Assembly (NCBI RefSeq): GCF_964355755.1
Contig: NC_092679.1
Location: 21,869,432 to 21,933,431 of the forward strand
Origin: Antedon mediterranea
Lineage: Eukaryota > Animalia > Echinodermata
DNA: 64,000 bases
Direction of reading: 5' to 3'
Notes under the pieces: generated by a model
What the model was told of the DNA's origin: nothing
Seen by the model: the letters and a program-made list of their open reading frames with translations, nothing else
Database searches by the model: none
Position numbers and translations under genes: made by a program
Part shown: one piece after another, positions 786 through 52,078 of the stretch
Position numbering within the stretch: the stretch's first letter is position 1
Layout: each line of letters begins with the position of its first letter

Positions 786-990
786 AACCTCTGTCTACAC
801 TATCAAACTGTGCCCAAACATTGTAGTGATATGCCCAAATATGGTAGTGATATGACATCATCATGTCTATTATAGGCACATCACATTTTTTGTCAGATAA
901 ACTTTGATAGTGTACACAGAGCTTAAGCACTACCTTATTTGGGCACATCACATTTTATGGCACATAGAGTTTGATAGTGTAGACAGAGCT
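786..990. mobile_element. MITE family A (one copy 786-923 plus partial copy ending 990)
   Basis: TIR (AG)CTCTGTCTACACTATCAAACT / AGTTTGATAGTGTAGACAGAGCT. Confidence 0.8.
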
Positions 991-998
991 TTAGTTAA

Positions 999-2545: not shown

Positions 2546-2587
2546 TCTCTGGAAAGCACACGACGTATGCTCACACTTGTGGAAGAG
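2546..2587 (+). CDS. SNAP25: SNAP-25 exon (vertebrate exon 3 equivalent) [14 protein letters not shown]
   Basis: ttttacag| 42 nt |gtatgt. Confidence 0.95.
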
Positions 2588-5500
2588 GTATGTTCTATCT
2601 GTCCTTTGATATTAGTTCTTGTCTTTTAGTCTTAACATTTTTTTTTAGTGCAGATTTACAGTAAAATCTCTATTATAAGATCACCACTGGTACTATATAT
2701 TCACATACCTGTATGGCATTTTATGCCCAGTATCATCGGCAAGTTCTATAATACAGTATCACATGTGTGTCACATTAATGCCTTTATTATGTTAAGCTTA
2801 TGATCTATGATACAGGCTTTACAAGTATAAGTAATATGTGACACTGTATCATAGAATTTGCTTTGATACTGTATAATATAGATACAGTACCGGGAATCTG
2901 CTAGAAGTTTTGCATCCCAAACAAATTCTACTATTTCTTTGTATTTTTGTTTATGATGTTTTTCAATGCAAATTAAATTAAAGATTCTTTTGTGGCTCTT
3001 TAAAAGAGTTTTTACTGTAAGCTATAAATAGATTTAGAAATAAAATGTTTGTGCTATAGATAAATCAATGGTTAATGTTTCATGTAGTCTTGTTAATGCC
3101 AATTGTTATTACAACATTAATTTCATTTTACTATTATACACTATAATTTATTATTATTAATAATAATTGGAACATTTCATTTTTTTTTATTTCATGATTA
3201 TTTACAACAAAAAAACTATTAAATATTATTATTTCACTGTAAAAATTTTTGATTTTTTTTTATATTTTTAAAAAATATATGGATAACTATCTTTTTTACT
3301 TCAAATGTTTTGAATTAACTACCTGACCTAAAACCAAGGTAAGATAGTGTGAAAGATACGAGAAATTGATTAAAACACTTTTTAAAATCTAGAGAGAAAA
3401 ATAAATAAATTATAAATGATATTAAAATTAACATAATAATAGTATTATTGTTCGATGTTTTATTAGTATAAATAACTTTGCAATAAACAAAAAGGTTCCA
3501 ATTAATAAAAAAAATTAATTAGAAATTTAATCAAAATAATTCAAAATGTTGAAGCATGGATTAAGAATATCATAAAACCAACAGAAAAAAAAAAGGTAAA
3601 TTGCTAATTTTGTTATTCCAATAAAATTGTTGCTCCTTTAAACTATCGGATGTAAAATTGTCTGTCGTGATTTAAGTCTTTCGTCACAGCATTTATGCAC
3701 GCTGAAAAATCTTAATTCCTTCCTAACAAGATGTATCCAGTACATATCAAACCTCCAATAATTTATCATATTTAAACACATGAGCACTTTATGTAAAGAT
3801 ACAAAGTTTGTGCAATTTTTTAAAATGTATTTATAACATCTAAGCATACCCAAAGTTTGTATGTTACATTCTAGTTTGAGCCTAGCTTACCCGGATAAAC
3901 CAACATACAGTAAGCCTATTATTCTCTAATGTTAAATTTAAAGAAAACAATCCTATTAATATTAATGGTTCAATCCACAAAATTCCAAAATTCTTGAATT
4001 TTAGATAATTACCCGGATAAACCAACATTTGCCTATTTTACTCTCTATATATATAAAGTTTAAATCCTTTAACAAACCCATCACAGTTATTGGTTCAATC
4101 TACAGAAATCCACAGAGGGAGAGCATCTCGTAAAATGAACATTCTTAAATTTTAACTCATTGAAAAAATAAACACTGTAATTTGCAGTCTGCAATTCAAA
4201 ACGAAATGCTCGACAGACCACCACATTAACTTTGGGAGTTCGCACACTTTGTTGTTGTATGCCTGGTTGAACTTCATTCCAAGGTGTCAAGAAAGATTTA
4301 CGTTAATTTTCACAAAGTCAAAATAGAATGAACGTATCGAAATTATGAATTTATAATGTCCACTTGTAATCAAAAACATTTGTGTCTTCGGTTTAAATAA
4401 TGTTAGTTATAAAATGGAAGTATATATTTCAACATTAAAATAAAATTTGAAATAAAACTGTGCTCTTTGATGCGTGAAGAAAACATTTGACGATTGTGAC
4501 TGACAGAAACTTATAAACTTATAATAAAATAAAATTCTAATATGGTCTATATTAAATATTTATTAATACAATAATTTATAACTATAATATTATTACAATT
4601 TTATTTCTAAATATATTTTATTAATTCATATTTAATGGACTGCAAAAAAGGATGTCTTAACTTAATGACATAATTAAGTATTAAAAATAAAATGCTAAAT
4701 TTTCGCTTAAAAATATTTAATTTAAATGATTTTTATATTTTATATGTTTGTTTTTATAAAATGTTATTATATAATGCTGTGTGGCTATACAATGTTATAA
4801 TGATGTGTGATGTTGTACAATGCTTAGAGCCAAGATGTTGGTATCAAGACACTTGTTATGCTGGATGAACAGGGAGGTAAGAAAGGGAGTCAGCTCAATA
4901 AATGAAAGCTGCCAATTGTCAATCAATGACTAAATCACTGCTTTGCCAACACTCATTGGTTGAAAGTTTTATCATGTGTACATCCACCCTCTGGTATGAA
5001 AATTGTACTGTCCATCTTTTGTGCACAGCATTTTAATACTGTATTCAGATGGAAACCGTCGTTTCTTGTGAATGAATATGTAATATATTCATATTTTTGC
5101 CTATTAACTTTTCTTCATTTTCATGTTACTGTCTTCTCTGTGTTTGTGTATATTTTATACGGACTGTTTATGTTGTTTTGTAAATGTTTTTTTTTATATC
5201 TTTTACTACTATCTATCATCCAACCTCATTCCTCTATTTTCTTACTCAAAAAACACATTTTTTACACATTTTCATCATACACTATTTTATTTTCTATTAA
5301 AAATCTAATCTTTTTTCCATTTCTAATGATCAATAAATTTTGTTTTTTTAATAATAAAATTCCAAGATTTTTTTCCTTGCTTTAAAAAATATACACCAAA
5401 CCAGTGTTTTCCATACCATACAGGTTCATTCATATTCATTAAAAGAAGGACTTTCACAGTCCTGTTTTTATTTAATTCATTTAGGATGATAAAGAAAAAG

Positions 5501-8500
5501 TATGTATATTTTTTAATAATATCCAATGGGGATTGGTCGATGGGAATGCTTCTTTACGAGCATGAAAACTGAAACGCAAACGAAAACGCATTTTTTAGCA
5601 TGATGCATTGTCTTGCATTCCCTCGCAAACCTTGACCTCTGACCTCCCATTCTGTCCATCCAACAGTATGTGCTTAATTAGATTGAGCAGAGTGAGGGTG
5701 GGGGAGTGGAGAAGGGTATCTGGATAGGAGGAAAAATTGTAACATATCTCTTATATTTTTGTTAAGAAAAGTTGTGGGTTTATGAATGTAATTTATTTAG
5801 TAGCCTCATTGGCTCTGTATTTAGTTTAGGAGTACAACATTGTCAGTGAGTTAAGAAATAGATAACAATGACATTGTGACACAGACACAGACACAGTATA
5901 TATACCCACAAATGTATTAAGACTATATAACCCTCTATGTTGAGGAATCAATTGATGTAGACACACCCATCCCTTCCTTTGTGGTAGATCAAATCCGACT
6001 AGTGAACAGTGTTCCTGGCAGCCCTCTCAAAAAATAAGCCAGTGCTTACAAATTGTCTCTAATTTCAACTATGACCCTTTGGGTAGTGCTTGGAGTGCGC
6101 GCTCCCACTTTTAAGACAGCAAACATTTAATTATGAACTAATTTTGGTATATATTTTAAATGTAGGAATATTATTTAATACTGTAATATGTTACAGTCCT
6201 GCAGTGCTTAGTGATCTATGTTGGGATCTACACTTACCTATTGTTCTGAAATTAAAAAGTCTAAATTAAAACCGCTTTACACTATACACATTATGATATA
6301 CCACAATCTTAATATTCCATGCCCAATTTAGCAAAATGCTTGAATGCTTGCATTTCTAGTGTAGTATTTTTGCATACCAAACAATCAATAAATTTTATTG
6401 GCTTGGTGTCAAGCAATTTCCTATAGCAATCTACCGAAGCATTATGGTTTTACAAGATGTGAAATCATTGTCAAAATTAACAATATTTCATTTCTTTTGT
6501 TAATTTTTAAGTTATTATAAAAATAGTATGAATTTTAATTGTTGTTTTATTTATAATATTTTATTAGGGATGTTGTTTATACAATAAACAATAAAAATTG
6601 ACTGTTTGAATTTTAATTATTAAATATTTTATTTATATATTTATTTTATTGAGAAAGTTATTGATTGTATTTTACTTAAGGTATAATTTAGCAAGAATAT
6701 AGTTAAGCACTGTAATGTATTTAACTGATAATATTTTATATAAATTATTATTATGTTTTGTAGAATGTGTTGTATTTGTTGATGTAGTCAGTTTTGAGTG
6801 GCATGTGCGTTTTATTCACAAGATTGTCAATAATATGTGATGTTTTTAAATTTACATATTTTAATATAAAATATTAATATTCGCTAGAATATCAATTATA
6901 ATAGTTTAAAATAATAAAATAAGAATAAAAATTACCATACTTTAATAATCAATGTTTGTCATTTTTCCGATGATAGACTTGAAATTGTAATCTTTTTTTA
7001 ATATTAAAAATTGTTCTATTTTTAAATTGATAGTGTTTAGTACTATTTTAACAATAATATGTTTTGTAAACAAGCCTAAAATATATTATTTGTACTCCTT
7101 TTTTACAAATATAATAATAATAATAACTACGGTATATATAATTTTTTTTTATAAATCCATCAATTTATTATGATTAATTTTGTATTACCATAAACAAAAC
7201 TCTTCCATATCGCTTGTGACATAACAACAAAAAATATAATCCTTTTCTAAGATACACTGTTAATAACATCTATCGCGCTATTTGTCGATATGCCACTATA
7301 CATTTACGGTTGAGTGAACAAGGAGTTCACATTTACATTGTACTGTAATCCATTTCAGTACATAATTATTCATATATGATTAAATTATATATGCATACCT
7401 AAAATTACATTTTTTTTATTTGGGTATCAATCCTGATATATAAATTAGAAGAAAAAAATAACTGCTGCTGTTTGAGTTGACCTTATTACAAACAAACACA
7501 AAACAACATATGCAAAAGATAAATTCAAAGGAAACTAATCAATTCCATATTCTGCTTTTTTTTTATTTTCTCGTATTATTTAAATAATTAATATGAATGG
7601 AATTATTATTAATTTATTTATACAGTACTTCCCTCCATACATGAGCATTATATTATATTTATATTAGGAAAACCTATTAAGAAATTTGTATCATATTACA
7701 AAAAGACCCACTATCAAATAGCTAAATTAATTAATAGTGTAAAAATAGTTTTTAGACATCACGATTGTTATTTGTTTTACGTGTTTTGTACAATTAGTTT
7801 TGTGTTTGATGTTTTTTTTTCGGCTATCAGTTTAAAATTAAATACGTCTTATTTTTAAGTAAATTTAGAAAATACATTATTTGGTTGTTTTAACACTTTG
7901 GATAAAAATTTTAATATGACAAAGAGAAAATAAAATATTAAAGTTTCATTATTAATATAATATTACCATTAACTTGAATTAGTATGTTTATAACGCTCGT
8001 TTTCTGGTTGTGTGCTTCAGAGAAAAATAATAGAGTTTATACTTAATTATACAAATGTTATTATTATTAAGGTATAACCACATATTTTGAAGTGAAAAAT
8101 GAAGAAGCTAGGCTGAAATGTGTGTGTAGAGAGAGATAGAGAGTATAGTTGCTAAAATACAGTACCCTTTTAAATTCTTCATTGTGTTAGGAAGGGGAAC
8201 TCACTCACCTCCTAACCCTTATTATTAGTACCATTAATTTGATTAAAGGCTAGATAAGATTTGTAATTAAGACTAAATACTAGGATTATTAAGGATTTAT
8301 TATTGGATTAAAATGCGATTTGCATAAAACTTACACCTGTGTTGATGTATGCAGATTTTCTTCCCTTTCATAATTATGCATTTTTTCATCTTCATTCCCG
8401 AAAATTAATTTTATTCATCCACGCATTTCCTTCATGTATTATAAGCATATCCTAGTTTCATTTGATTGTTTATTCTTCGTTTTATCCTTGCATGTATTAT

Positions 8501-11500
8501 TTCATGTTTTTGTTTAAAATCACTCCTTTGAAATGTTGGTTTTCAGTTTAAAATTATTAAAACATTTATGAATTACAATCCCCTTTGTTTGCTTATAAAA
8601 AACGTTGTTAATAGTCTGAATTAGACATTTTCTACTATGGGGGTGTGATTACGTTTGTTCTTTCAACCAATGAGTGTTTTATTTGCCATTATGAATGCAT
8701 GTTCATTACCACGTTTGACATTTTCTTTTCTCTTCGTTTCGTTTCACTTTTCATTGCATTTCATAGGCGAAGGATTCGGGTCTGAACACCCTTGTAATGT
8801 TGGATGAACAAGGAGGTGGTGAACCTATACAACCCTTTTATCAATGTCTTGGGGTCGTTCAGAATCATCAATGTTTTTAAAGACTGCAAAGGCTCTCTTT
8901 GCATCCCTATCTTAATGAAAAAAAGAAGAATATTATCCAGTGTTTTTATCAAACGAACAACTTATTTCCTTTGAATTCTTTGAAAATATTGATAATTTTT
9001 GGCGACGCCTTTTATAACAAACTAATTTACTGTAGTTCGTATTAAGTAGATAGTTTGTGCACCTTTTATTGAATTTGATGGAAATGTTGTTTAAAAAACC
9101 AACAACAAATAAAATATTGATTTGTGAATTTAAATAAAAAATTAAATGATGCTTGAGATTATAATAATTATCCAAAATTAATTTTCAAAACTTTAAGGGA
9201 CCATTTCAAAATGATTCTACTGCAGTTACTGCAGTAGCTACATTTTCAATATGGTATAACCTTTTTATGCAATTAATTAGCAATTACTTGTTGGGTTGTC
9301 ATATAATGACTGATACTGATTATAACCAGCTATAAATTCATATATGATATTGCGGTAAAAAATGTAGTTACTACTGCAGTAGAATGGCTTTGACGTGATC
9401 TCTAACCACATTTCCATGAAATAAATGACAACGCTAATTTGACGGTTCGTTACCGTGTGAACGTACAGTAACCAGCAATATTTATTCGTTATTTTTTCAT
9501 TAGATACTTTCAGATAATTTATCGCTGTATCTCTTCATTTTTTTTTTTCAATATCATGTGTCCTATAAATTAAAAAAAAAATGCTTTTATGTTTCTTTAT
9601 TCTTTTTGCAGTAAAATCCTTTTTGAAAAAATTCTACTTTAGCTTTGTAAAAACAATTTTTTTTAAACTCTTAGATGTATTACAGGCTTTGAATGTCATA
9701 CTATTGAAAATAAGCTAACTATTCATAACGCAAAAAAAGACATGTTTTCAATTAAAGCAAGTGATTTACTAAAATTGAGATTTTGAACTTTTTTTTATTC
9801 AATTTTCTTATAACAGATCTTCAAATATTTTTTGTATCATCCATTTAGTTTGCACAAAATCTTTAAATCGATGAGGCTTGTTCGTTGACATTTATCATTT
9901 TTTTTAAATTACTTCTGAATTATACAAAACTATAATTCCATGTGAACACTGAATGTGAAACCAGTCTGAACATCAAAACTTGGCAGAAATTTAAATGCTA
10001 ATTTGGAAAAAAAGTAGCTGGCTAACAGCAGTATAGGCAAACAGACATAGGATTATTGAATCACCTCGTTTTAAAGGATTCTTTTTGAATCATCCATTCT
10101 TTGAAAAATGAAATTAGTTTTTATGATCATATTAGGAACTTGAGTTTACCTCATTATCAAGAGGATACGCTTGATTGACTCTGAATTCAAAGAGAATCGC
10201 ACGAATCGAAGGCAATCATTTGGAGACTGGTTTTAACGCAAAATTGATTTTCAATCAAAAGGTTCATTAAAATGAAATTACATGCGTGCAAGCTGATAGC
10301 ATATGTACTAGTGTTATGGTTGTAACTTAGATAGTGTTATGATATGGTGTAGGGTTTACTCAAAATATTAGGATTATTGATGCAGGATGGGCAGAGTATA
10401 GTAGTGAAGCTTCTAGTATGTGAATTAGGATTGGGGTGGGGCACTGACCATTAAAGTGTAGTGTGAAGTATCAGAGAGTGGGAGTGAATTATCCGGTGTA
10501 GGAGTGAAATATCCGTCAGTGGGAGTGAAGTATCTATTAATGGTAGTGAACTATCTGAGAGTGAAGTATCTGAGTGTGGGAGTGAAAGTATCCATGAGTG
10601 GGAGTGAAAGTATCTGTGAGTGGGAGTGAAGTATCCGTGAGTGGGAGTGAAGTATCCATGAGTGGGAGTGAAGTATCCATGAGTGGGAGTGAAGTATCCA
10701 TGAGTGGGAGTGAAGTATACGTGAGTGGGAGAGTGAAGTATCCGTGAGTGGGAGTGAATTATCCATTAGTTGGAGTGAAATATTTGTGAGTAGGAGTGGA
10801 GTATCCATGAGTGGGAGTGGAGTATCCGTGAGTGGGAGTGAAGTATCCGTGAGTGGGAGTGAAGTATCTGTGAGTGGGAGTGAAGTATCCGTGAGTAGGA
10901 GTAAAGTATCCATAAGTGGGAGTGAAGTATATGAGACTGGGAGTGAATTATCTGGGAGTTGGAGTTAAGTATCCAAGAGTGGGAGGGATTTATCGGAGTA
11001 GGAGTGAAGGGTTTTGGAAGTGAGTGATTTATTGTGGAGTAGGAGTGAATTATCTGAGAGTGTGAGTGAAGTATCTGAGTGGGAGTGAAATATCTGTGAG
11101 TGGGAATAAATTATCTGTGAGTGGGAATAAAGTATCTGTGAGTGGGAGTGAATTATCTGAGAGTGCGAGTGATTTAATGGGAGGAGTGGGAGTAAATTAT
11201 ATGGATGTAAAGTACCCAGAAGTTAGAGTAATTTATTTCGGAGTTAATTATTCATGGTGGGGGTGAGTTATCAGTCAGTGGGAGTGAGTTATCAGTCAGT
11301 GGAGTAAAGTATCTGTTAGTGTTAAAATATCCAAGAGTGAGGACCAGAAAGAGTAGGGAGAATGAAGTATCCAGGAGTGTGGCATTGACCAGCAAATAGT
11401 GGTAGGAGAAGGATGAGGGAGTGCAAAGTTGACTAAAAAAAAAGTAGTGGGAGTAAAGAATCTAGGGGTGGAAAGTGAAGTGTTTAGGAGTGGAGAGTGA

Positions 11501-24600: not shown

Positions 24601-27371
24601 ATTCTAATTCATCACTACATATGAAACGTAAATCTTAGGGCTAAGATAAGTTTTTTGTATTTTTAGAACATTTTATCCAAATAAGGGATGATTTATTGTA
24701 GGATTATAGCATTAAGTGTGTTTAAAGTGCACAATTTATTCAGTACTTTTTCAATAAGATTATTTTTTGTCTTTGTTTAAAAAAAAGTGTTTTTATTTAA
24801 ATTTGTGCAATATCGTTTAAATGTTCATAAATTACTTTAGATTCTTTGTCATATAGAATAGTATTGTATCGTATTTTTCTGTTGAAATCACCTTTGAATC
24901 AATTTATTTAGTGTAATAGATCAAAACAAAATTAGTTGACTTACTACATAGTTTGTTATTGCTAGGCCTAATCATGAATGATAATATGTAGCTGTTTGTT
25001 TTTTTTATTCTAGCTATACTCAGTAAAAATGTCAATTAAGTTCAACCACCTCTAATGATAGAGCAGGGAGCTGTTATTAGCCCGGATAGAGTTAGCAGTC
25101 AGCTTTCCCAATTAATGCTCTGCCTACACTATCCAACTTTATGTGACAACAAAATGTGATGTGCCCATATATGGACATGATGACATCATATCGCTACCAT
25201 ATTTGAGCACACACTGGTTTGATAGTGTAGACAAAGGTTAAGACGAATGTTTGAATTTCCATTTTGTATTGGGAGAGTTGACTAAATATTATAATAAAGT
25301 TTAGTTAGATAAGGTTTAGATTACTGTCTTATTAAACACATTAGCATAGACATCCATAGTACTATTCCATCCCATGTTTATCATTCCTTGTTCATCATAT
25401 TGTCACCGCAGGATTTTCATTAAGGCACTAAACCATATTCTAGTCAGTATCTAATAGAGAGAGCTTTTGAATCGATTTTCATTCACCTAGTAGCTGTAGT
25501 ACCTAAGCCTCGATCAGAGACATCACATATACTATATTATCACAGCAGTTGTCCTACACTTAGCCCTATACTTCCCTACCTATTTTCTCAGTCCGTAGAT
25601 CACCATTTCCTCCCCCTACCATCACCATACTAGATACCTAATCCTTCCAGTTTTTTCCCCCCAGTAGGTCGAAATGCCTAAAGAACAAGTTGTAGCCTAT
25701 TCATAATTTGTCGTGTTGAGATCCATTTTAGATGTATATAGATTAAATATGTACAGTACACATTAAGTTGAATTTCAGTATTCAGTATCCAAATAGTTCT
25801 ACTTAAATTGATTTATTGTATTATAATTAAGGTACAATTTTGTTTCCATTTATTTTATGTTGATATATATAAATTTCTTATGCATTACATTTTTTTGTAA
25901 TGTCCAATTAGGTAATTTTTTTTCATATACGTCCGTGTGTGCAATAGATTGTACAAAATAATAACACCTGTATTTGTAATAGAGAAATGGCACCACCAAT
26001 AATGTTCAAATCAATTTTAATCCTATTAATTATTTATTTTTAATATAATAAATGTTTCAGCTTACTTACAATATTTCATGTATTTATATTCAACTAGTAT
26101 ATATATCACAAATTTTACTTTTTTTTTTTTTCATGCTTTTTCCTACACATATGATTTCAATATTTTTCAAGCACATACAAATGTTAATGTTTCTTAATTC
26201 CATATACTAACATTCAGCCAGTTTTAAAAAAATTAGGCACAATTTGGATGCCAAATTGGCAGCCATCAAGCCTCCAGGAAAATGTTTGTTTTGGTATTCA
26301 GGAAAGTAAAAAATCTCTCACATCTCCCGACAATCACCGTCAGTTGTTTTATGATATTTCAAGTGATATCCCGTCTCCTGCTAAAGGTGGAATTTCTCCC
26401 GATTGATGGTATTGGATATACAGTACCTTGTATACTACAATGGTATATAGGGATAAATAAAATTGATAGCAAGGGTGGAAGAAAAGGTGGGATGGAGTGC
26501 GATGTGTAGGATGTTGGAGAAGGGAGAGAGAAGAGACTTATTTACTACACTACACCTGAATACCATAAACAGTCATTTTCATGCATGCCATCCTGTTGCT
26601 TTATTTTCCTTTTATTTGCTTGAATATCTGTGCACGTACTGAACAGTATAAACTTTTTTGTTTTCATATTTTGTGAATATTAACATTTTTCTTATACAAT
26701 TTTATTTTCAGCTTTTTAAACAACTTTATTTGACATTTATCAATTTTTCACAATAGCATACAAAAAAAACTCTTTACTTAACAACAAAGATGAGAAAATG
26801 CACTAAAAATGTATACATTTTGTTTATAAAGTAGAACCTCTATTAAGGGGACACCTTCTTCAAACAAATTTCCTAATATGGCTGTACCATGAATAGGTGT
26901 TGGTCATAATGCTAAAACATATATGTCCCCTTGTTTGTTTTATGAGAAAGTGGCCCTTTAATAAGATGTCTCCTTAATAGGATGTCCAATTAATAGGGTG
27001 TCCCCTTAATAGGGGGTGTCCCATTAATAGGGTGTCCCATGAATAGGGGTTTCCCCTTAAATATGGGTTTCCCATAAATAGGCTGTCACTTTAATAGGGC
27101 GTCTCCTGAACCCTAATATGGGGCCCCATTATTAATAGGATGTCCCCTTAATAGGATGTCCCCTTAATAGGGTGTCCCCTTAATAGGGGTTTCTCTTAAT
27201 AGTGGTGTCCCCAGAGGAGAGTTCTACTAATCTATACTTTTGTACAATGTTAATAGGTATTTCTTTCAATATCTATCTAATTTCAATGTCTCCTATTCAC
27301 AGGCCGAGTCCAATAATGAACGTATACAAGTAGCAGACAAAAGGGCCAAGGATATATTAAGAAAACAGTAA
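2546..27371 (+). CDS. SNAP25: Synaptosomal-associated protein 25 (Qbc-SNARE), multi-exon, 5'-partial; alternative exons 4a/4b and 8a/8b
   Basis: GT-AG exons 2546-2587, 4828-4876 (or 8767-8815), 19603-19720, 20547-20681, 21430-21574, 23733-23795 (or 27303-27371) join in frame: [78 protein letters not shown]. Exon sizes 42/49/118/145 match vertebrate SNAP25 as recalled. Confidence 0.97.
4828..4876 (+). CDS. SNAP25: SNAP-25 alternative exon 4a [16 protein letters not shown](E)
   Basis: cttag| 49 nt |gtaaga; contains the zero-layer Gln of SNARE motif 1. Confidence 0.93.
4948..5006 (+). promoter_or_regulatory. 5' arm of predicted long-range intronic RNA duplex (pairs with 8625-8678)
   Basis: 4948-4966 aacactcattggttgaaag is the exact reverse complement of 8660-8678; 4976-5006 pairs with 8625-8654 using G-U pairs and bulges. 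Confidence 0.8.
8625..8678 (+). promoter_or_regulatory. 3' arm of predicted long-range intronic RNA duplex (pairs with 4948-5006)
   Basis: ctttcaaccaatgagtgtt at 8660-8678, ending 88 nt before exon 4b. Confidence 0.8.
8767..8815 (+). CDS. SNAP25: SNAP-25 alternative exon 4b [16 protein letters not shown](E)
   Basis: Polypyrimidine tract + tcatag| 49 nt |gtggtg; same length and phase as 4a, synonymous divergence with protein conservation. Confidence 0.88.
9196..9403. mobile_element. Degenerate MITE
   Basis: Imperfect inverted ends attctactgcag..ctacattt / aaatgtag..ctgcagtagaat; related fragment near 44055-44100. Confidence 0.55.
10475..11340. repeat. 21-bp minisatellite GAGTGGGAGTGAAGTATCCRT, degenerate edges
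   Basis: Tandem units visible; explains the 7-aa periodic ORFs 10551-10913 and 10744-10968. Confidence 0.9.
11465..13775. repeat. 22-bp minisatellite GAGTGGAGAGTGAAGTATCTAG, about 105 units
   Basis: Homogeneous purine-rich tandem array in the SNAP-25 intron. Confidence 0.97.
14985..15692. repeat. (ATC)n trinucleotide microsatellite
   Basis: About 700 bp of catcatcat with cac/caa/tat variants. Confidence 0.97.
17736..17880 (+). mobile_element. tRNA-derived SINE (degenerate)
   Basis: A-box-like gtagtggagctggtgg and B-box ggttcaatcc; homologous to the minus-strand element at 56040-56568. Confidence 0.6.
19603..19720 (+). CDS. SNAP25: SNAP-25 exon 5 with palmitoylation Cys cluster CCGICTCPW
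   Basis: tttcag| 118 nt |gtaata; [38 protein letters not shown]. Confidence 0.95.
20547..20681 (+). CDS. SNAP25: SNAP-25 exon 6 (linker, QPMRV motif)
   Basis: ttttag| 135 nt |gtatct; [45 protein letters not shown]. Confidence 0.93.
20961..21030 (+). mobile_element. tRNA-like SINE head remnant
   Basis: ggcacaatagcttagcggtt ... ggttcaaatcc ... tgcca: A/B boxes but no convincing anticodon arm. Confidence 0.5.
21187..21342. mobile_element. MITE family A
   Basis: agctctgtctaca ... gtgtagacagagct. Confidence 0.8.
21430..21574 (+). CDS. SNAP25: SNAP-25 exon 7 (SNARE motif 2)
   Basis: ttttag| 145 nt |gtgagg; [48 protein letters not shown]. Confidence 0.96.
21808..21971. mobile_element. MITE family A (further partial copy 22376-22464)
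   Basis: agctctatctacac ... tgtagacagagat. Confidence 0.8.
23217..23339. mobile_element. MITE family A, one end truncated
   Basis: Internal family sequence and right TIR gtgtagacagagct. Confidence 0.75.
23733..23795 (+). CDS. SNAP25: SNAP-25 alternative terminal exon 8a [20 protein letters not shown]
   Basis: TACTAAC at 23665-23671, pyrimidine tract, caacag acceptor, phase 0; aligns to vertebrate ADSNKTRIDEANQRATKML. Confidence 0.9.
   Translation, partial: AQSNVGRISVANERAAKLLK
25116..25239. mobile_element. MITE family A
   Basis: gctctgcctacactatcc ... tttgatagtgtagaca. Confidence 0.7.
26829..27228. mobile_element. Tc1/mariner-like MITE family C with internal ~17-bp tandem expansion
   Basis: agtagaacctct ... 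gagttctact ends; internal aatagggtgtcccctt repeats; relatives at 13846-13929, 41495-41940, 49903-50043. Confidence 0.65.
27303..27371 (+). CDS. SNAP25: SNAP-25 alternative terminal exon 8b [22 protein letters not shown]
   Basis: ttcacag acceptor, phase 0; same heptad layer residues as 8a. Confidence 0.92.
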   Translation, partial: AESNNERIQVADKRAKDILRKQ

Positions 27372-31028: not shown

Positions 31029-34000
31029 ATGGGAGGTACTGTATCTAGAGATGATTTTGAGTGGGTTTATACAGAAGAACCACATGTTTCAAGACGCAAA
31101 GCAATACTTAGTGAGTACTTACTGTAGAGTGTAAGCCTAGGCCTAGCCTATTTATATTATAATCATCAGGGTGATGGAAAATTCTGAGTGAGCTGTTCAC
31201 ACGTAGAGTCTATAGGCTAGGCCTAGTAGTAGTAGGGCGGCCGGCTATTAGGCTAGATCATGGAAACGAAATAGAGGATAGTTAGGCCTAGGCTATATAC
31301 AGCCTACGTACTAAGGCCTAGGCTAGCCTATATATAGGCCTAGTAGGATGATGGTTTTTGATTTACTTTTAATTTATAATATTTAAATGAAGGAAAGGGG
31401 AGAGGGGCTATTCTATTGTTAGGGCCTAGGCTACATACAGTATCTAACCATCATAATAAAGGTAAGTTTATGTACGAATATATGGGCCTATTCAATTTTG
31501 TTTTATGTTAAAATTATGTTGGGTATTAATAGGCCTAGAGGCCTATAATTATGACAATTCAAATAAATAATAAAGCAATGGAATAGGCCTATCTATAGAA
31601 ATAGGCCTAGTTAGTAGAGGCTTTTAGGTAAACCTAGGCCTATCCTTCAAAATTACAATTAAAATTTATTTATAGATTCCACTAAATTCAGAATTTCCAA
31701 GGTAGGCCTAGATCCTTCAACAAGAAGACTGTTTTTGTTAACTTTCTTAGTATTACTTGTTTGTACAGACAGATAATAAGACTAACTACCTTGTTGACAG
31801 CAATGCAAACAATACAAAAGCCTGTTCATATTTGCTTTGCTTTGTTGATTGTTTTTTTATAATCTTGTGCTGATATTATTGTCTAGATAACTAAATAAGG
31901 AAACATGCTACTGTCATTTTATTGATAGCATGATTACATAGGTAAATAACGTCCAAATTTGTTCCTAAAATAAGACAATGAAATGAAAACTAAATATTTA
32001 CAAGCAAATGCATTAAATTAGAAACCATCTTTAGAATTAGAAAAATCTTAATTTAATTCCAATGGGGTCCTTTAAAAACAGCATTGACAATCGCAACAAA
32101 CGGTATACTAACATATCAAACACGCATGACAATAAAATATGGCAGAGAAGATATACAATTTTAAAATATGAGACAAACAAAATTGGATGACCTACACTAA
32201 TTGCAAAAATAGGAGAGCTATGTCTACACTCTCAAACTATTTTGAAAAAAAAAGTGTTGTGCCCAAATATGATAGTGATATGACATCATGTCCATATATG
32301 GGCACATCACACTTTTTGTCACATAGAGTTTGATAGTGTAAACAAGGCTGAAGACTAGAGTAAGACTTCTTTTGTGTTCTGAAAACCCTTTGTCTAATTT
32401 CTCTCTAAAAAACATAGATGTATGCTACACATACAAATTTGTTTAGTCAATAATAACACCTGCAAAGTCTGAACTATAATCTTGAAAATGTCTATGATTA
32501 TTATTTGCCAATAAAATGTCCCATAAAAGCTTTGCTAGCGGAAGTTATATTGGCTATGCTTTGTATATGTCCATCTAAAGTTCAATTGTTTAGTTTTTAA
32601 TCACAAATGAAGTGAACTGAATGACTTTTAGGGTGACCTTCAATCTACAAATAGGTATTATCAAAACCGATTTGATTTAGGTAATTGTAAATCATGCACC
32701 ATCTTCTACAAAAGGTTTGATTTAATAGAAAGATTAACATTGGTCTGAATGTATGCCTGGCTGGGAAGATTAAATGAAGGATTAAGCTTATAAATGTGTA
32801 CAGTATCAGTACCACTCTCTCTGATTGGATTGGTCCTTAATCATCCAAATACTATGGTTCTTGTTAAAAATTATTATTTTTGTTAAAATAGGAAATGTTT
32901 AAATTGACTAATCAGGGCTCGAAATTAACTCTTTTTTTTTCTCTGCGCATATTGTCAACTCTCCCAATACCAGATACCTTTGGGCTGGCCTAATATGTCT
33001 GGTTTTCTATAAAGTCTGGTATTTAATTCCTTAAAAATTGAATTTACAGTCTTTTTTACAAGTACTGTACAATCAAAAGCATAAACTAGAAGTGTGACAT
33101 TTTTGCTTGCTTTTGAAAATTTGGAAACAAAAATGAGTAGTTTGTTATAGTAAATTTTGTGCCCAGATAAATATAATCTGATAATACTGACTAAATATTT
33201 AATTGATACTATTCAATTTTACATTTAAATTTTTTCAGAAAAATATCCGGAAGTTAAGAAGTTGATGGGTCATGATGACAACACAGCTTCTACCATGGTT
33301 GTTATGGTATTGACCCAGGTCTTGACCAGTTACCTACTCCAAGACCAGTCATGGTTGACCATACTAATAGTAGCATACTGCTTCGGAGGCGTAGTCAATC
33401 ACTCTATGACACTTGCCATTCACGAAACCGGACATAACCTGACGTATGGCCACGGTCATCCGATGCGGAATCGTCTGATAGGTTTCATCGGTAACACCAT
33501 ACTCGGTGTACCAATGTCGGTTTCGTTTCGGCGCTACCATCATGACCACCATCGTTATCAAGGGCAGGAACATATGGATCCGGATATACCAACTCATGCA
33601 GAGGGCGTACTATTTCATAATAGAATCACGAAAATGATATGGATGTTTTTCCAACCGTTGTTTTACACTCTACGTCCATTTTTTTTACGACCAAAAGTTC
33701 CCGGACGTTTAGAATATTATAATCTCACGGTACAGTTAATATTCAATGTATGCCTTGTGTATTTCACAAGTTATAAATCGTTGGCATATTTATTGCTTTG
33801 TACTTTTATAAGTTTAGGACTTCACCCGATGGCGGGACACTTTATTTCAGAACATTACGTAGCTGTTGGAGATTATGAGACGTATTCGTATGAAGGGGCG
33901 TACAATTACCTAGCTTTCAATGTTGGATATCACGTTGAGCATCACGATTTCCCAAATATACCGGGCAAGAATCTACCACTGGTAAGTCTTATTTCATGCT

Positions 34001-34522
34001 AGAGTATGCTTATAGCAAACTTTCCTTTATGGAGGGTAAACAATTTAACATTGAGCCGAAACAAAAGGAACATGTATTCTGTCTAATAGTAAACTTAGTA
34101 TAATTTAATAACTATAAAATAAAACAAATAATATTTTATTTGTCATTGAATTAGTGACACATTTTAAGGTATGCTTAAGTCAACAGATAACAAGAACGCT
34201 CGTGTCAACTGAAAAGTATGAGGGCGCTTCTGTCACCATGAAACTGATTGCTAAAACTACTTTAGATTGGGCTGATGTCATAACCCAGTTGAGTTCATGT
34301 CGGCCTTACAGTAACGTCCCTTAAAATCCTATGTTATATTTATAACTTCATATTTTTCAGGTTCGTAAAATCGCACCAGAATTCTACGAAGACCAGAAGT
34401 GTCATGAATCGTTCACGGCTGTTGTTTGGGACTTCATTATGAACCCTGAAAATGGACCATTCAACCGTATCAGACGACCCGACGCGCGCGACCCAAGTCT
34501 ACCTGATCCTTGGATACGTTGA
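31029..34522 (+). CDS. DEGS1: Sphingolipid delta(4)-desaturase DES1-like, copy 1 (328 aa)
   Basis: Exons 31029-31110, 33239-33981, 34361-34522. [20 protein letters not shown]-terminus; His boxes HETGH, HHDHH, HVEHH; three-exon DEGS structure. Confidence 0.96.
32216..32349. mobile_element. MITE family A
   Basis: agctatgtctacac ... gtttgatagtgtaaacaaggct. Confidence 0.7.
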
Positions 34523-34628
34523 GCAATAATTGGGTAACATCACAATGTTTACTATTTGTTTATGAACACATATGCATTTAATATGGAATGTGGAGAACTA
34601 GGTGGTAGTTTAACTAAGGCAAGGCTAA

Positions 34629-34956
34629 AGCTACTTTCACATTGCACCAGGATTCAGTCCCGCGCCCTGAGAAAAATATTGTGAGCGTTGCGCACGCGTG
34701 CTTTCACACCGAGAATGAATTTGGTTGTCAAGTGATGTCATTCATGCTCAATGCTGATTGGATGAAAGAAATAAATCGTACAATTTCAGAAACAAATGGC
34801 TACTTGATCCATTGCTACTAATTCAGAGCTTGAATAACGTACGGATTTATATTGTACGAATTTGGTGTGAACAATGCTATGCTTTGCCACTGAACCCATT
34901 TTCCACAATATTTTTCTCAGCACCGGACCGAATCCGGGTGTGATGTGAAAGCAGCT
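34629..34956. mobile_element. PIF/Harbinger-like MITE downstream of the DEGS copy 1 stop
   Basis: About 55-bp imperfect TIRs agctactttcaca..gagaaaaatattgtg / cacaatatttttctc..tgtgaaagcagct; TWA flanks. Confidence 0.75.
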
Positions 34957-36441
34957 TTAAACAAGGCTGATTTGATATCACATATAACACAACAATTACT
35001 AGTATTTATTAGTCCGATCTGACTGTATTCTGTTGTCTATACAAATAGATCAATCCATGATGAACCACTGCCTTGTTGACAAAGTATTCTCTCTGCTACT
35101 AGTTTCAATCCCTTGTGAATGCATACTAGTCTTGTTTACACTCCAGTATTAGTTTGTTTAGCCTCAGTAGATGACTCGAAGAGTCGCTGATGAGCCACAA
35201 AAACAAAAAATGCATTGTAGGCCAATCACAACGTTTCTTTGAGAATTTTAGTGATGTAAATGTAATAATTAAATTCTAGGATTCAAAGTACAGTATATAA
35301 ACTTTAATCCTAGGCCTACCATTATTTGCTTATTATATTGAGCTCATATTTAAAAAAATGATCTATAAATATTAAAAAGGTCTACATTTTTATTTTACTA
35401 CTTAGAGATGATTTTGTATTTTTACTCTGAACAAAAAATGTATATACTGCCCTCTGTAGTTACCATGTGGCATGATGTTTATAAGTAGACTCTAGGTGGT
35501 GCTGTTGCTTTTTTCTTGATTTTGCAAGTTCTTCCTGTACTACCTTAATGTTATGCTGCAGACACACAACATTTACTTTTAATATAATTTAGCTTAAATA
35601 CAGTTATTTATAGTATTAAGGCAATATTAGTTTAGAATATGACATTTGGAGGCTTAAAGTATTGGTGTTCAATGAAAAATGAAGGAATAGTAGAACGATT
35701 TTGCAATATTTACTTAACCAATCAACTACATAACTGCTATATTTGGCTAAAGTAAATTTGTTTAGTCTGTTTACTTTAGCCATACTAATTCATTCACTAT
35801 TGTACTTAACTGGGAAGTTTGTTGAAATACCAGTTGAAATGAACTGATATGAGCTTGTACAGTATTACCAAGTACCACATGACTAATAATACCATCCTCC
35901 CTCATATTATTTTTATGGACGGTGGGTTACTGTGTTCACCACTATACCCTAGAAACACACAAGCATGGGTACAACTCTCCCAAATTCTTGATGACTTCAA
36001 ACTAATATCCCAAATTCTTATGTAAAATCTGAAAACCGAATATTTCCCGAAAACAGGTCACTCTAGTCTGAACAACCATGTCATCATAGTCAAATTATTT
36101 AGCTGGTTAGGTTAAGTACATTTAGGAAGGTAATCTCTTCTTTTTCTGTTTAGGCAAATGTGACCGAGGAAGAAGAGATTACAAACATTTTATGGTTTAT
36201 TAATTCCATTAGAATACCATTACAATACTAGAGACTTATTTCTTGCTTTTTGTTGGTTATACAATGCCACTATATTTAGTTTTTATCAGATAGAATATAA
36301 ACCAATGACATCAGAGGCATGCTAGATTCTAAACAATAAATTTGTAAGTACACAGTATATACCAGGCTCCTGTTAGCTGCTATACTGTAACAAATAAATG
36401 TATTTATACAGTACTATGTGTTCATATCAGCTATTTTCTAA

Positions 36442-36597
36442 AGCGTGGTTCCCACTAGCGACGCAACACAAGGACGCAACGCAAGTGAATTGACCAATCA
36501 CAAGCGATGGCTTATTCGCTTGTGATTGCTATCTGTCTATAACTTCGCTTGTCATTGGTTAAAACGCTTGCGTTTACGTTCTAGTGGGAACCAAGCT
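36442..36597. mobile_element. PIF/Harbinger-like MITE family B
   Basis: taa|agcgtggttcccactag ... ctagtgggaaccaagct|taa. Confidence 0.85.
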
Positions 36598-36616
36598 TAA
36601 GCTTACGTTGCGCTTA

Positions 36617-36782
36617 AGCGTGGTTCCCACTAGCGACGTAATGCAACGCAAGTGAATTGACCAATCACTAGCGATGGCTTATTTTCTTGTGATTGCTAAC
36701 TGTCTATAACTTTGCTTGTCATTGGTTAAAACGCTTGCGTTGCATTTACGTTCTTGCGTTACGTTGTAGTGGGAACCAAGCT
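36617..36782. mobile_element. MITE family B, second adjacent copy
   Basis: Same TIRs and internal CCAAT-containing palindrome. Confidence 0.85.
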
Positions 36783-36784
36783 AA

Positions 36785-37158
36785 AGCCTATTTTCCACTA
36801 GGCGAATTTGTTCGCGCGAATCAAACGTTTCGAAGAGAAAAAAATCGCCTACTCTCTTTCCACTACATGAGCGAATAGCTGCAACGTTCATGTTCCTCGC
36901 GTGGTTGCTGAGCATTTCGATTCGCATGACTGCACATGAAAGCGTCATAACTCATTTCCTGAGCTCTGATTGGTTGCGCAATATTTCGCTTCGCAAAAAG
37001 TAGAAACAATTCGAACTAGTAAATTTCGCTGCAGCGAAAAATCAAGGAACTAGAATTCGTCGCAGAAGGGAGTATGACAGACAGAAACTCGAATACGCAT
37101 GCGCAGAGCATGACGTTTTCGATTCGCGCGAACAAATTCGCCTAGTGGAAAATCAGCT
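36785..37158. mobile_element. Harbinger-like MITE with ~38-bp TIRs
   Basis: agcctattttccactaggcgaatttgttcgcgcgaatc / gattcgcgcgaacaaattcgcctagtggaaaatcagct. Confidence 0.85.
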
Positions 37159-37957
37159 TTAATCGTCTTCTTTTATGCATAACTGCATACTTTATAGGCC
37201 TTGTACTCATTTTAAGCTGGTCACAAAAATATGTTATATTTTCAATTTATCACTAGTCCTACAATTTGTTTGCATTTCCTGATGTATATTTATCCCAAAA
37301 AAATTGTTACAATGTTCAGAAATGATATCAATTGAAAGAATTGTTTATTCAAGTGTTCTAAGGTGTGTAATATTGACTGGACTTTAGACTATTATCGTCA
37401 TGGCAATACATGAACAATTTAGCTAATTATTATCATAATAGATAATAGTATTAACAGTCCTGGCTTGGTCTAAACAATTTTTATTTGGCCTTAATATTAA
37501 AATATACAAATATTCTCCGAATTTGATTTTAGGATTATTACAGTATATATTACAGTATTACTATTCTTAAGTTGTTTTTTTTTTTGTGAATTTATGTAAA
37601 ATTTATTTCTATGCATTATTTATTCTATTACAAAGATGTGTAAAAAGTAAGGTACTTATATCCTTGTTTTATTATATAGTAACATTTTTCTACAGTATTG
37701 TAATTGTATTATTCAATAATTAGAAACAAAAATGATATTACCCATGATATGATATAGGTATTTACTTATTACTTTCACAATATTCCTATACCTTCATGGA
37801 AGCGTTTGTCTGTGATGGCCCATTCGATATCTATTGTAAAAATCAGTTGTATATTTAATTGGAGCCTGATGATGAATTATTGGAATAAGAGTTTTGTTTT
37901 ATGGTTGTTAAAATATATTGATTGATCAATTAATGTTTTCAGTGTTTTTCATTAAGT

Positions 37958-38827
37958 GTGCCTGTTCTCAGAGTGTATTGGGAATATTGTAGGCCTACTC
38001 CTGTACTCTTTGCTGATGATCTTCTCATTTATAGACCCATTCATTCAGATACCGACTCTACAATTCTTCAATCTGATCTTCATTCCATTCACCAGTGGGC
38101 ATCTGCAAATTCTATGTCATTTAACCCAAAGAAGACAAAAGTGATGCAAGTTACTCGGAAGAAAATATATATGTCTCACACTTACTTCTATAATGGTCAA
38201 CCTCTTCTCACTGTCTCCTCACACAAATATCTTGGTCTTACTCTCGACAACAAATTATCCTGGAATGAACATATAAATAATGTTGTTTCTAAGGCAAACA
38301 GAATGTCGGGGCTTATTTTTAGTGTTGCTAATAATGCTTCAAAACCTGCTTTACTGTCTCTTTTTAAATCTTTAATTTTACCAATTCTTGACTATGGACT
38401 TCCTGCTTGGTTGCCTCAAACCAAGTCCCAGTCAATCCGCATAGAGCGCATCCAACAAAATTTTACAAGAAGAGTTCTAAAATGTAAAAGAGGAGAGATA
38501 CCATACCTTACCAGGTTAAATTCTTTTAACCTCATGTCTCTTGAAAACCGTCGCAACAAAATCCTTTTTCACTTTATTTTTAAATGTCTTTATGGCTTTA
38601 CTGACTGCTCTTCTGTCATCCAGAATCTCACTATCAATCCTAGACATACTGAAGACCTCACTTTTAATCATCTCTTTTCTCGAACACTGGCCCTTCGTAA
38701 TTCTATAAACCGCTTCCCTAAACTTTGGTCTCGGTTACCTTCCTCATTACGCCAATTACCTGTTACTGAATCTTTTCCTCATCTTTTATCATCTATTGAC
38801 TCTTTCCTTCTTGATAATTATCTTTAA
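37958..38827 (+). pseudogene. Reverse transcriptase fragment of LINE ORF2
   Basis: LFADD motif, W..N.M.FNP.KTKVM, KYLG..LD.KLSW..HI, FKSLILPILDYG, IERIQQNFTR; no real start codon. Confidence 0.9.
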
Positions 38828-39060
38828 TTATTTTTTATTCAAATTTTTTTGTATATCATATCTGTTTTGTTTTTTCTGTATACTCACAGCTTTATACTTT
38901 ATTTGTTTATAAAATTATATAATTATTTTAGTTAAGATCATGGGACTGCTGACTCTTGTAGTTACAGTAATCGTATTACTTTAGCAGTCCCTGACCAATT
39001 CATCTTTGTACATTGTATATTATGTTTTGTTGGTCAAATAAATAAATGAAATGAAATGAA
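38005..39060 (+). mobile_element. 5'-truncated non-LTR retrotransposon (CR1/L2/Jockey group) with 3' UTR and (ATGAA)n tail
   Basis: RT C-terminal ORF, 3' UTR hairpin gggactgct..agcagtccc (38942-38991), aataaatgaaatgaaatgaa tail, imperfect TSD. Confidence 0.9.
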
Positions 39061-39454
39061 CTCCACTGTACTCCTATGTTGACCAGTGATTAATTATTTT
39101 GTATATAATATTTATCACTGATGATAACGAAGAATAAAATGGTTCAACACATTTCAGAAAAAAACATTAATATTTTTTTAAAGTTTGTAAATTTACAATG
39201 GGAACGTACGTCCACACAGTACACGTGGTTATAAAAAAAACAATAAGAAACCACCAATCAAGTTACGTCTTGATCGATAAACCACGCCCACTTTACTTTG
39301 AGTGGAGTGCGCGTATCCAGATAGCAACCAACCATGAGCAGACGACCTTTGGACTGGTGGTAAGTAAGTAAACCACGCGCGTTCTGAACCGAAGTGAAGA
39401 CCCAAAGACATCATGGTGAATAGTTTATTTACGCCTTGGAAAATAAAAAGTATA

Positions 39455-51700: not shown

Positions 51701-52078
51701 GTCATCGAGAATGCAATGTACGAGTAATTATTTATTACATTTTTTTTGCATTATCTACTTTGCATCTAAAGTAAAATTGGGGCAATGCTTTTTCGAATGG
51801 TTAAAAGTGAATGACGAAAATCTGTTCATTCATCATTATTTGTACCAACCACTGCAGTTGCGATTAATAATTCAATTAGTAATTACTGAAAAGCATACAT
51901 CTGAAATTGAGAATAGCCTATATATTAAATTAATTATTAAATCATGACGTACAACAAAACCATAATTTCTTAAGACATCGCACTCAGCAACTATACCATA
52001 CTGCTCAAAGCTTTGTCGCAACTTTTGACTCGAATAGCCATTTGGTAAATTTCCAACGAACAACTTCTTCTTTACCAT
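48752..52078 (-). CDS. RBM4: RNA-binding protein 4 / lark-like (RRM + CCHC zinc knuckle + RGG + R/Y/P-rich tail, about 304 aa)
   Basis: Exons (minus) 52078-51953, 51537-51344, 51133-50876, 50731-50666, 49022-48752 join in frame. MVKKKLFVGNLP..FEQYG.V.ECDVLRNYGFVHME..VQYST..PGIG..CFRCGETGHFSRECP is lark/RBM4-typical. Confidence 0.88.

What the first reader, a model, noticed from the sequence alone, without database searches (positions are those of the whole stretch)
2546..27371. One SNAP-25 gene with two duplicated-exon switches and acceptor-masking RNA duplexes: a candidate SNAP-25-like / SNAP-23-like isoform generator
Seen: two 49-nt versions of exon 4 (SNARE motif 1) and two versions of the last exon (end of SNARE motif 2), allowing up to four proteins. 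Seen: the acceptors of 4b and 8a each have a distant complementary intronic partner. Established: vertebrates diversify this SNARE by gene duplication (SNAP-23/SNAP-25) and by duplicating exon 5 (25a/25b), and flies by SNAP-24/25. Inference: 4b (K40) + 8a (AN.RA.K.L) are the neuronal-SNAP-25-like pair and are repressed by structure by default. 4a (SQD.GIKT, like SNAP-23) + 8b would be the ubiquitous or egg form, and they match the sea-urchin protein I recall. I do not know of this arrangement being described.
Basis: partly seen in the sequence, partly recalled or inferred. Interest (0 to 1): 0.9.

Follow-up and report, generated by a model that had tools for sequence, protein, structure and literature searches.

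The report
Ancient two-switch SNAP-25 splicing gene
A feather star's gene for the vesicle-fusion protein SNAP-25 carries two interchangeable versions of one small exon and two alternative last exons, an arrangement shared across many invertebrates that likely lets one gene make both a calcium-sensor-tuned form and a general-purpose form, while the RNA pairings proposed to control the choice remain untested.

Summary
The exon anatomy is confirmed. The gene matches Antedon mediterranea SNAP-25. It has two 49-nt exon-4 copies (Q40 and K40 types) and two last exons; all four combinations are in frame. One RNA contig joins exon 3 to 4a. RefSeq models already contain all four exons.

The exon-4 pair occurs in 16 of 16 echinoderm and hemichordate species retrieved, and in brachiopod, mollusc and arthropod entries. 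It swaps residue 40 of the synaptotagmin interface, one of three interface residues separating SNAP-25 from SNAP-23 (PMC8967716). Vertebrate SNAP-25 keeps the K type and amphioxus the Q type, so the chordate ancestor likely had both.

8b resembles cnidarian ends, not SNAP-23. The sea-urchin entry named 'ovarian' carries the K exon. The 8a-acceptor duplex beats most controls; the 4b duplex passes only one of two scoring schemes. Neither could be tested for conservation, and I have no tissue data.

This scan found the exon-4 pair twice before (arthropod, sea urchin). The last-exon switch and the 8a duplex are the additions. Verdict: new variant of a known kind; interest 0.5.

The parts
2546..2587 (+). 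constitutive exon 3 (SNARE motif 1, residues 25-38 in vertebrate numbering); earlier exons lie upstream of the window
   Evidence: numbering from the PDB alignment; tblastn of the two annotated N-termini finds nothing in the window
4828..4876 (+). exon 4a, 49 nt, Q40 type; pyrimidine-poor acceptor
   Evidence: spliced contig exon 3 to 4a in run X1; 3 of 5 RefSeq isoforms
5528..5639 (+). local hairpin holding the candidate partner (5559-5585) of the 4b acceptor
   Evidence: (z -2.5)
8732..8758 (+). pyrimidine tract of the 4b acceptor, predicted to pair with 5559-5585 (weak support)
8767..8815 (+). exon 4b, 49 nt, K40 type
   Evidence: 2 of 5 RefSeq isoforms; identical peptide in Anneissia
19603..19720 (+). 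exon 5, single copy, with the cysteine cluster
20547..20681 (+). exon 6, linker (Pfam PF00835)
21430..21574 (+). exon 7, SNARE motif 2
23687..23737 (+). 8a acceptor region, predicted to pair with 26486-26537
23733..23795 (+). proximal last exon 8a (20 residues and stop); AATAAA at 23809
   Evidence: 1 of 5 RefSeq isoforms; identical peptide in Anneissia
26486..26537 (+). purine-rich single-copy element, candidate mask of the 8a acceptor; AATAAA at 26456 just upstream
   Evidence: (blastn finds no other copy in the window)
27303..27371 (+). distal last exon 8b (22 residues and stop)
   Evidence: 4 of 5 RefSeq isoforms

Best explanation
This is a crinoid SNAP-25 gene with two interchangeable copies of exon 4 and two alternative last exons, inherited from an old bilaterian arrangement, which likely lets one gene make a K40 form tuned for synaptotagmin-triggered release and a Q40 general-purpose form. 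SHOWN: the anatomy; the frame constraint; splicing of 4a; annotation of all four exons; conservation of the K/non-K exon pair across phyla. INFERRED: (a) only one exon 4 survives in stable mRNA, because both or neither give an early stop, and the 3.9-kb spacing rules out steric exclusion; (b) 4a+8b, the cnidarian-like pair, is the default form; (c) 4b is switched on in cells that do fast calcium-triggered secretion, namely neurons and probably eggs; (d) the two switches are biased rather than locked; (e) the strong proximal 8a acceptor must be repressed for 8b to be reached, and the duplex with 26486-26537 would do this by masking the acceptor and looping out 8a with its poly(A) signals (odds about 0.45; about 0.3 for the 4b duplex).
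For: Frame logic. Spliced 4a contig. RefSeq isoforms X1-X5. Both exon-4 types in 16 of 16 named echinoderm and hemichordate species retrieved, and in 10 protostome groups. Among the 26 groups chosen for having both, 57 of 57 exon variants are closest to the same type in another phylum, and 56 of 57 without residue 40. 4b and 8a peptides are identical in Anneissia. K40, D51 and E52 of the synaptotagmin primary interface lie in exon 4, and SNAP-25A and SNAP-23 differ there only at K40Q, L47I and V48T (PMC8967716 passages; numbering). Sea-urchin cortical granule release uses synaptotagmin-1 and SNAP-25 (PMC8446563 passage), which fits a K-type entry named 'ovarian'. Weak hint of bias: of 31 unnamed assembly-derived invertebrate proteins sorted by eye, 25 were Q+8b-like, 4 K+8a-like, and 1 each mixed (16 of 47 rows set aside; 9 rows are one cluster; the query was Q+8b). 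The 8a duplex beats most controls.
Against: No tissue data. No spliced read for 4b, 8a or 8b was seen here. RefSeq models are predictions and do not phase distant exons. K40 versus Q40 has no functional test in an invertebrate, and SNAP-23 (Q40) also supports calcium-triggered fusion with synaptotagmin-2. Dreissena and tunicate entries carry hybrid exons. Five mollusc groups showed one exon-4 type only in the entries retrieved. Each duplex passes only one of two scoring schemes. The 8a partner is promiscuous: -40.0 with 24552-24614, and it is also the top gene-wide partner of the 4b tract. Dispersed inverted repeats in the same introns pair far more strongly, at -137 to -148.
Confidence: 0.68

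Rival explanations
1. The exons are real, but the choice is made by RNA-binding proteins alone, and both duplexes are chance pairings of a pyrimidine tract with a purine-rich stretch.
For: 4b and 8a have the long CU-rich tracts (80% and 73% pyrimidine). TGCATG lies at 8489 and 8696 upstream of 4b, and at 22228 and 26582 (its reading as an Rbfox motif is recalled). Each duplex fails one scoring scheme. The 4b duplex has no net gain over random windows.
Against: Dinucleotide shuffles keep composition, yet the 8a score was reached by 0 of 300 and 1 of 150. It scores 51 against at most 39 for 13 decoy acceptors. Only two of seven acceptors stand out, and both are alternative.
Confidence: 0.5
2. 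One reading: 4b+8a is the neuronal form, 4a+8b the ubiquitous or egg form, with both neuronal exons masked by default.
For: 4b and 8a are the derived, vertebrate-SNAP-25-like exons. They are the two acceptors with candidate partners. The weak pairing bias points the same way.
Against: The sea-urchin 'ovarian' entry is K+8b. 4b+8a is not among 5 Antedon models, while 4b+8b and 4a+8a are. 8b is not SNAP-23-like. Many echinoderms have a third last exon.
Confidence: 0.15
3. Vertebrates inherited only the K exon, and Q40 or R40 in SNAP-23 arose again by substitution, so 4a and SNAP-23 are alike by convergence or shared ancestral state, not by descent of the exon.
For: Tunicate entries have Q40 on an otherwise K-type exon (log-odds +3.6 and +2.6 without residue 40). 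An unnamed vertebrate-like protein (P0117) falls outside the SNAP-25 clade yet has the K exon. The ray SNAP-23-like exon is intermediate (-3.4).
Against: Coelacanth SNAP-23 and a hagfish entry score as Q type even without residue 40 (-7.3 and -7.8). Amphioxus keeps an exon identical to 4a. The place of P0117 is unresolved (AU p 0.135 and 0.197).
Confidence: 0.45
4. 4b or 8a is a decaying spare exon in this species.
For: 4b is the most divergent K-type exon (leave-one-out log-odds 1.4). No 4b joint was seen in the one run that showed a splice joint.
Against: Both peptides are identical in Anneissia, splice sites are intact, and both appear in RefSeq models.
Confidence: 0.05

Closest known systems
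RefSeq isoform sets of invertebrate SNAP-25 (Antedon XP_071961764-768; Anneissia XP_033110576-579; Ptychodera, Lingula, Haliotis, Limulus, Apis) and S. purpuratus AAC35867 / AAC83577
   Same: The same exon-4 pair and alternative last exons.
   Different: They are database entries; my ten searches found no paper describing the system or its regulation. Antedon shows two last exons where many echinoderms and hemichordates show three or four.
Vertebrate SNAP-25a/25b (duplicated exon 5; PMC2581893, passages read)
   Same: Tandem duplicated, mutually exclusive exon in SNARE motif 1 of the same gene.
   Different: A different exon: Antedon has one exon 5 and duplicates exon 4 and the last exon.
Vertebrate SNAP-25 / SNAP-23 paralogs (PMC8967716, passages read)
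   Same: K40 versus Q40 at the synaptotagmin primary interface.
   Different: Achieved by gene duplication. L47I and V48T are not mirrored in Antedon 4a. SNAP-23 ends resemble 8a, not 8b.
RNA-structure control of duplicated exons (Dscam/srp docking-selector, PMC6071210 abstract; PGRP-LC and pip 3' regions, PMC9013439 passages)
   Same: Long-range pairing proposed to govern the choice of duplicated internal and terminal exons.
   Different: No common docking site was found here: the 4a and 8b acceptors have no partner above chance. The geometry would be single-acceptor masking, and it has no conservation support yet.

Membership tests
SNAP-25 family (Qbc SNARE) | two SNARE motifs homologous to SNAP-25 | tested here: met
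   PDB hits to SNAP-25 chains, E 2e-23 for motif 1 and 3e-17 for motif 2
SNAP-25 family (Qbc SNARE) | SNAP-25 linker domain and cysteine cluster | tested here: met
   PF00835 above its cut-off; cysteines at the end of exon 5
Tandem-duplicated mutually exclusive exons | homologous exons of equal length and phase with canonical splice sites | tested here: met
   49 and 49 nt, 34 of 49 identical, AG/GT
Tandem-duplicated mutually exclusive exons | joint inclusion or joint skipping is unproductive | tested here: met
   both give a frameshift and early stop
Tandem-duplicated mutually exclusive exons | each copy is spliced into RNA | tested here: inconclusive
   4a: one contig. 4b, 8a, 8b: only through annotated isoforms here and in relatives
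Tandem-duplicated mutually exclusive exons | tissue- or stage-regulated choice | not testable with these tools
   no run on record as RNA was listed
Docking-site/selector RNA switch (Dscam type) | one docking element complementary to a selector at each alternative exon | tested here: not met
   4a and 8b acceptors (-45 to -1) have no partner above chance within 4 kb; selectors elsewhere in the introns were not searched
Docking-site/selector RNA switch (Dscam type) | pairing conserved with compensatory changes | not testable with these tools
   no related animal genome is held
Vertebrate SNAP-25a/b event | the duplicated exon is exon 5 | tested here: not met
   single exon 5 (score 101, next best -35)
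SNAP-23-like isoform (4a+8b) | Q at residue 40 | tested here: met
   with PMC8967716; also the cnidarian state
SNAP-23-like isoform (4a+8b) | C-terminus closer to SNAP-23 than the alternative exon is | tested here: not met
   ray and coelacanth SNAP-23 are closer to 8a

The most novel reading that the evidence does not exclude
The neuronal versus general split of SNAP-25 and SNAP-23 began as a splicing switch in the bilaterian ancestor. A derived K40 exon and a derived last exon were added beside the cnidarian-type ones and gated by acceptor-masking RNA duplexes. Vertebrates later froze the two exon-4 alternatives into separate genes, K in SNAP-25 and Q in SNAP-23.
Probability: 0.25. Interest if true: 0.8.

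Novelty: new variant of a known kind. Interest (0 to 1): 0.5.

Why it matters
If the K40 exon is the synaptotagmin-tuned form, then the specialisation of SNAP-25 for fast calcium-triggered release is at least as old as bilaterians and first existed as an exon choice. The usual account places it in a vertebrate gene duplication. This gives a direct test: exon-4 usage should mark fast-secreting cells in echinoderms, molluscs and arthropods, and K40/Q40 swaps should change release kinetics. It also means that invertebrate single-cell studies that count SNAP-25 by gene would miss the distinction. The 8a duplex, if conserved, would add a deuterostome case of structure-gated last-exon choice. Against this, the exons are already in public annotation, this scan has reported the exon-4 pair twice, and the structural part is unproven.

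Tried and rejected
No genome is held for this window, so upstream exons, gene copy number and intron conservation could not be checked. No RNA holder was listed among the 5 runs found; this is no evidence on expression. X1 holds intronic contigs as well as one spliced contig, so it looks mixed; the missing 4b joint is not evidence of absence. No read data were obtained for the 3' half of the gene, so splicing of 8a and 8b and the poly(A) sites stay open. Rfam: 0 matches in 1-32000. A third last exon, third exon 4 or second exon 5 in Antedon: none found. A shared docking site at the acceptors: none. The place of P0117 and the hagfish Q-type entry: unresolved; two trees differ and neither AU test rejects. 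Script errors, discarded or corrected: exon offsets; time-out; log-odds table shifted by one residue; last-exon classifier lumps 8b with the third type (counts read instead); ensemble energies misread (only minimum-energy nets used). Papers not held: Johard 1999 on sequence variability of cockroach SNAP-25 (title seen only in a reference list; it may be an early sighting of these variants), the 2019 SNAP-25 family review, Vilinsky 2002. No supplements were read. No structure or complex prediction was run, since a one-residue surface change would not be resolved. The exon type of Drosophila SNAP-24 was not obtained.
Full report
IDENTITY. Exon 6 of the window matches, at 100% over 44 residues, a RefSeq protein of the feather star Antedon mediterranea named SNAP-25-like isoform X1. 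Pfam PF00835 and PDB SNAP-25 chains confirm the family. No genome is held for the window, and the first coding exons lie upstream of it.

EXON ANATOMY. The coordinates are in 'parts'. Exons 4a and 4b are both 49 nt with AG/GT ends and 34 of 49 bases identical. Exons 8a and 8b both start in phase 0 and end in a stop. All four combinations are in frame. Using both exon-4 copies, or neither, gives an early stop, so only one-of-two products should be stable (inference; nonsense-mediated decay is recalled knowledge). The copies lie 3.9 kb apart, too far for steric exclusion. Profile scans found no further copies. One contig of run X1 joins exon 3 to 4a with GT..AG at depth 46, and the two other runs laid do not show this joint. 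No joint into 4b was listed, and I have no read data for the 3' half. The five Antedon RefSeq models are 4a+8b (two), 4b+8b (two) and 4a+8a (one), with two different N-termini; the crinoid Anneissia has all four combinations, and its 4b and 8a peptides are identical to Antedon's.

CONSERVATION OF EXON 4. I split the retrieved relatives into exon-equivalent parts (47 groups). Both a K-type and a non-K (mostly Q) exon 4 appear in 16 of 16 named echinoderm and hemichordate species, covering all five echinoderm classes. They also appear in Lingula, three Haliotis species, Biomphalaria, Babylonia, Pomacea, Limulus, Apis and Lasioglossum. Five mollusc groups (Mercenaria, Dreissena, Mya, Elysia crispata, Mytilus) showed one type only, and several groups had a single entry; the query was Q-type, so retrieval is biased. 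Among the 26 groups with both types, 57 of 57 variants were closer to the same type in another phylum, and 56 of 57 when residue 40 was ignored. This points to one ancient duplication. Four cnidarian entries have Q40. Amphioxus entries carry an exon identical to 4a. The vertebrate SNAP-25 exon is identical over 17 residues to the K exon of Amphiura, Lingula and Capitella, and 86 of 92 new chordate entries have K40. The chordate ancestor therefore likely had both exons (inference, about 0.85).

WHAT THE SWAP CHANGES. Exon 4 encodes residues 39-54 (numbering). PMC8967716 (12 of 15 passages seen) lists K40, D51, E52, E55, Q56 and D166 as SNAP-25 residues of the synaptotagmin-1 primary interface. 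It states that SNAP-25A and SNAP-23 differ there only at K40Q, L47I and V48T. All three fall in exon 4. Antedon 4a and 4b differ at residue 40 and keep D51 and E52. The same paper shows that SNAP-23 supports calcium-triggered fusion with synaptotagmin-2, so K40 would tune the interface rather than switch it on. Whether SNAP-23's exon descends from the Q exon is open. Coelacanth SNAP-23 and a hagfish entry score as Q type even without residue 40, but the ray exon is intermediate, tunicates have Q40 on a K-type background, and an unnamed vertebrate-like protein outside the SNAP-25 clade has the K exon. Trees do not settle its place.

LAST EXON. Read: an 8b-type end occurs in 15 of the 16 ambulacrarian species, an 8a-type end in 9, and a third type in 9; Antedon lacks the third type up to position 31000. 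Most mollusc and bee groups also show two ends. Over 19 residues, 8b is closest to sea anemones (14) and amphioxus (12). 8a is closer to vertebrate SNAP-25 (11 vs 9) and also to ray and coelacanth SNAP-23 (10 and 11 vs 8 and 9). So 8b is the ancestral-like end, not a SNAP-23-like end. These differences of two to three residues are small.

COUPLING AND TISSUE. The two S. purpuratus entries share an 8b-type end and differ at exon 4; the one named 'ovarian' has the K exon. This goes against '4a = egg form' and against strict coupling, though an ovary library could include nerve. Sea-urchin cortical granule release uses synaptotagmin-1 (PMC8446563, passages), so the K exon may track fast calcium-triggered secretion rather than neurons alone (inference). 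Among 47 unnamed assembly-derived proteins I set aside 16 that look tunicate, cnidarian, vertebrate or paralogous. The other 31, sorted by eye, gave 25 Q+8b-like, 4 K+8a-like, 1 Q+8a-like and 1 K+8b-like. Nine are one cluster and lineages are not independent, so this is only a hint of bias.

DUPLEXES. The 8a pairing is the top partner of that acceptor across the gene, beats composition-keeping shuffles when G-U pairs are allowed, beats 13 decoy acceptors and survives local folding. It fails with Watson-Crick pairs only, and its purine-rich arm pairs almost as well with another pyrimidine tract. The 4b pairing is a clean 23-pair helix without G-U and is unusual under Watson-Crick scoring (1 of 300), a scheme I added after the first test failed. 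It is ordinary in energy, and its partner is folded into a local hairpin. That could be a hairpin-versus-duplex switch or chance. With 14 tests the corrected p-values are roughly 0.05 and 0.09. Dispersed inverted repeats in introns 7 and 8 pair at -137 to -148 kcal/mol, and one pair brackets exon 8a. These look like transposon copies (inference) and are unlikely to be the conserved control of so old a system, but they would compete in this species. The logic of masking is reasonable: 4b and 8a have strong pyrimidine tracts (80% and 73%) while the 4a acceptor is about half pyrimidine (sequence), so something must hold them back. Proteins could do this equally well.

COMPARISON WITH WHAT IS KNOWN. 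Tandem duplicated exons in SNAP-25 are known for vertebrate exon 5 (PMC2581893, passages). RNA pairing that governs duplicated internal and terminal exons is known from flies (PMC6071210, abstract and outline; PMC9013439, passages). Ten searches of the open library listed no paper on an invertebrate SNAP-25 exon-4 pair or alternative last exons. PMC12857021 (passages) reports differential SNAP25 splicing in butterfly brain without naming the exon in what I saw. PMC9741552 (passages) does not contain 'SNAP25' or 'SNAP23' in its main text. PMC8377282 (passages) covers SNAP-24 only as a redundant homolog. Three likely relevant papers were not held, so absence from print is not established. Two earlier notes of this scan report the exon-4 pair in an arthropod and a sea urchin.

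VERDICT. The feature is real and ancient. It is a new variant of a known kind, already present in annotation but apparently little discussed. The evolutionary reading is the valuable part; the RNA-structure mechanism is plausible for 8a, weak for 4b, and untested for both. Interest 0.5.

Noticed in passing
window 31029-41471 (+): Two tandem sphingolipid delta-4 desaturase (DEGS1-like) genes: first exon at 31029-31109 hits Pfam PF08557; similar large exons at 33229-34002 and 40614-41471.
   Followed up: partly
window 37934-38827 (+): 297-residue open frame between the two desaturase copies that looks like a LINE reverse-transcriptase fragment (by eye; not scanned).
   Followed up: no
window 48750-52230 (-): Exon-like frames with an RRM-like start and RG/RS-rich repeats, possibly an RBM4/lark-like gene (by eye; name recalled).
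   Followed up: no
window 10557-13775 and 14985-15691: A 22-nt GA-rich satellite (about 104 copies in its main block) and a (CAT)n run of 237 units inside the intron between 4b and exon 5; the satellite pairs non-specifically with pyrimidine tracts.
   Followed up: partly
window 809-997, 21800-21960, 22370-22464, 23230-23348, 25107-25211: A dispersed repeat of about 130 nt in both orientations; one inverted pair brackets exon 8a and its first poly(A) signals at about -148 kcal/mol.
   Followed up: partly
window 26456: AATAAA lies 30 nt before the 8a partner element, so that element could double as the downstream signal of a long 8a 3' UTR.
   Followed up: no
proteins P0007, P0128-P0139 (Amphiura filiformis): The brittle star models show two versions of exon 5 and three of exon 4, paralleling the vertebrate 5a/5b duplication.
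   Followed up: no
proteins P0040, P0200, P0201 (Apostichopus japonicus): A second sea-cucumber SNAP-25-like gene fixed for a Q-type exon 4 and an 8b-type end; P0030 and P0051 look similar.
   Followed up: no
proteins P0001 vs P0002 and relatives: Two alternative N-termini recur in crinoid, brittle star, starfish, sea cucumber, hemichordate, brachiopod and mollusc models, a third switch upstream of this window.
   Followed up: no
proteins P0117 and P0257: Two vertebrate-type proteins that group together outside the SNAP-25 clade in one tree (89/85), one with the K exon and one (hagfish) with a Q-type exon.
   Followed up: partly
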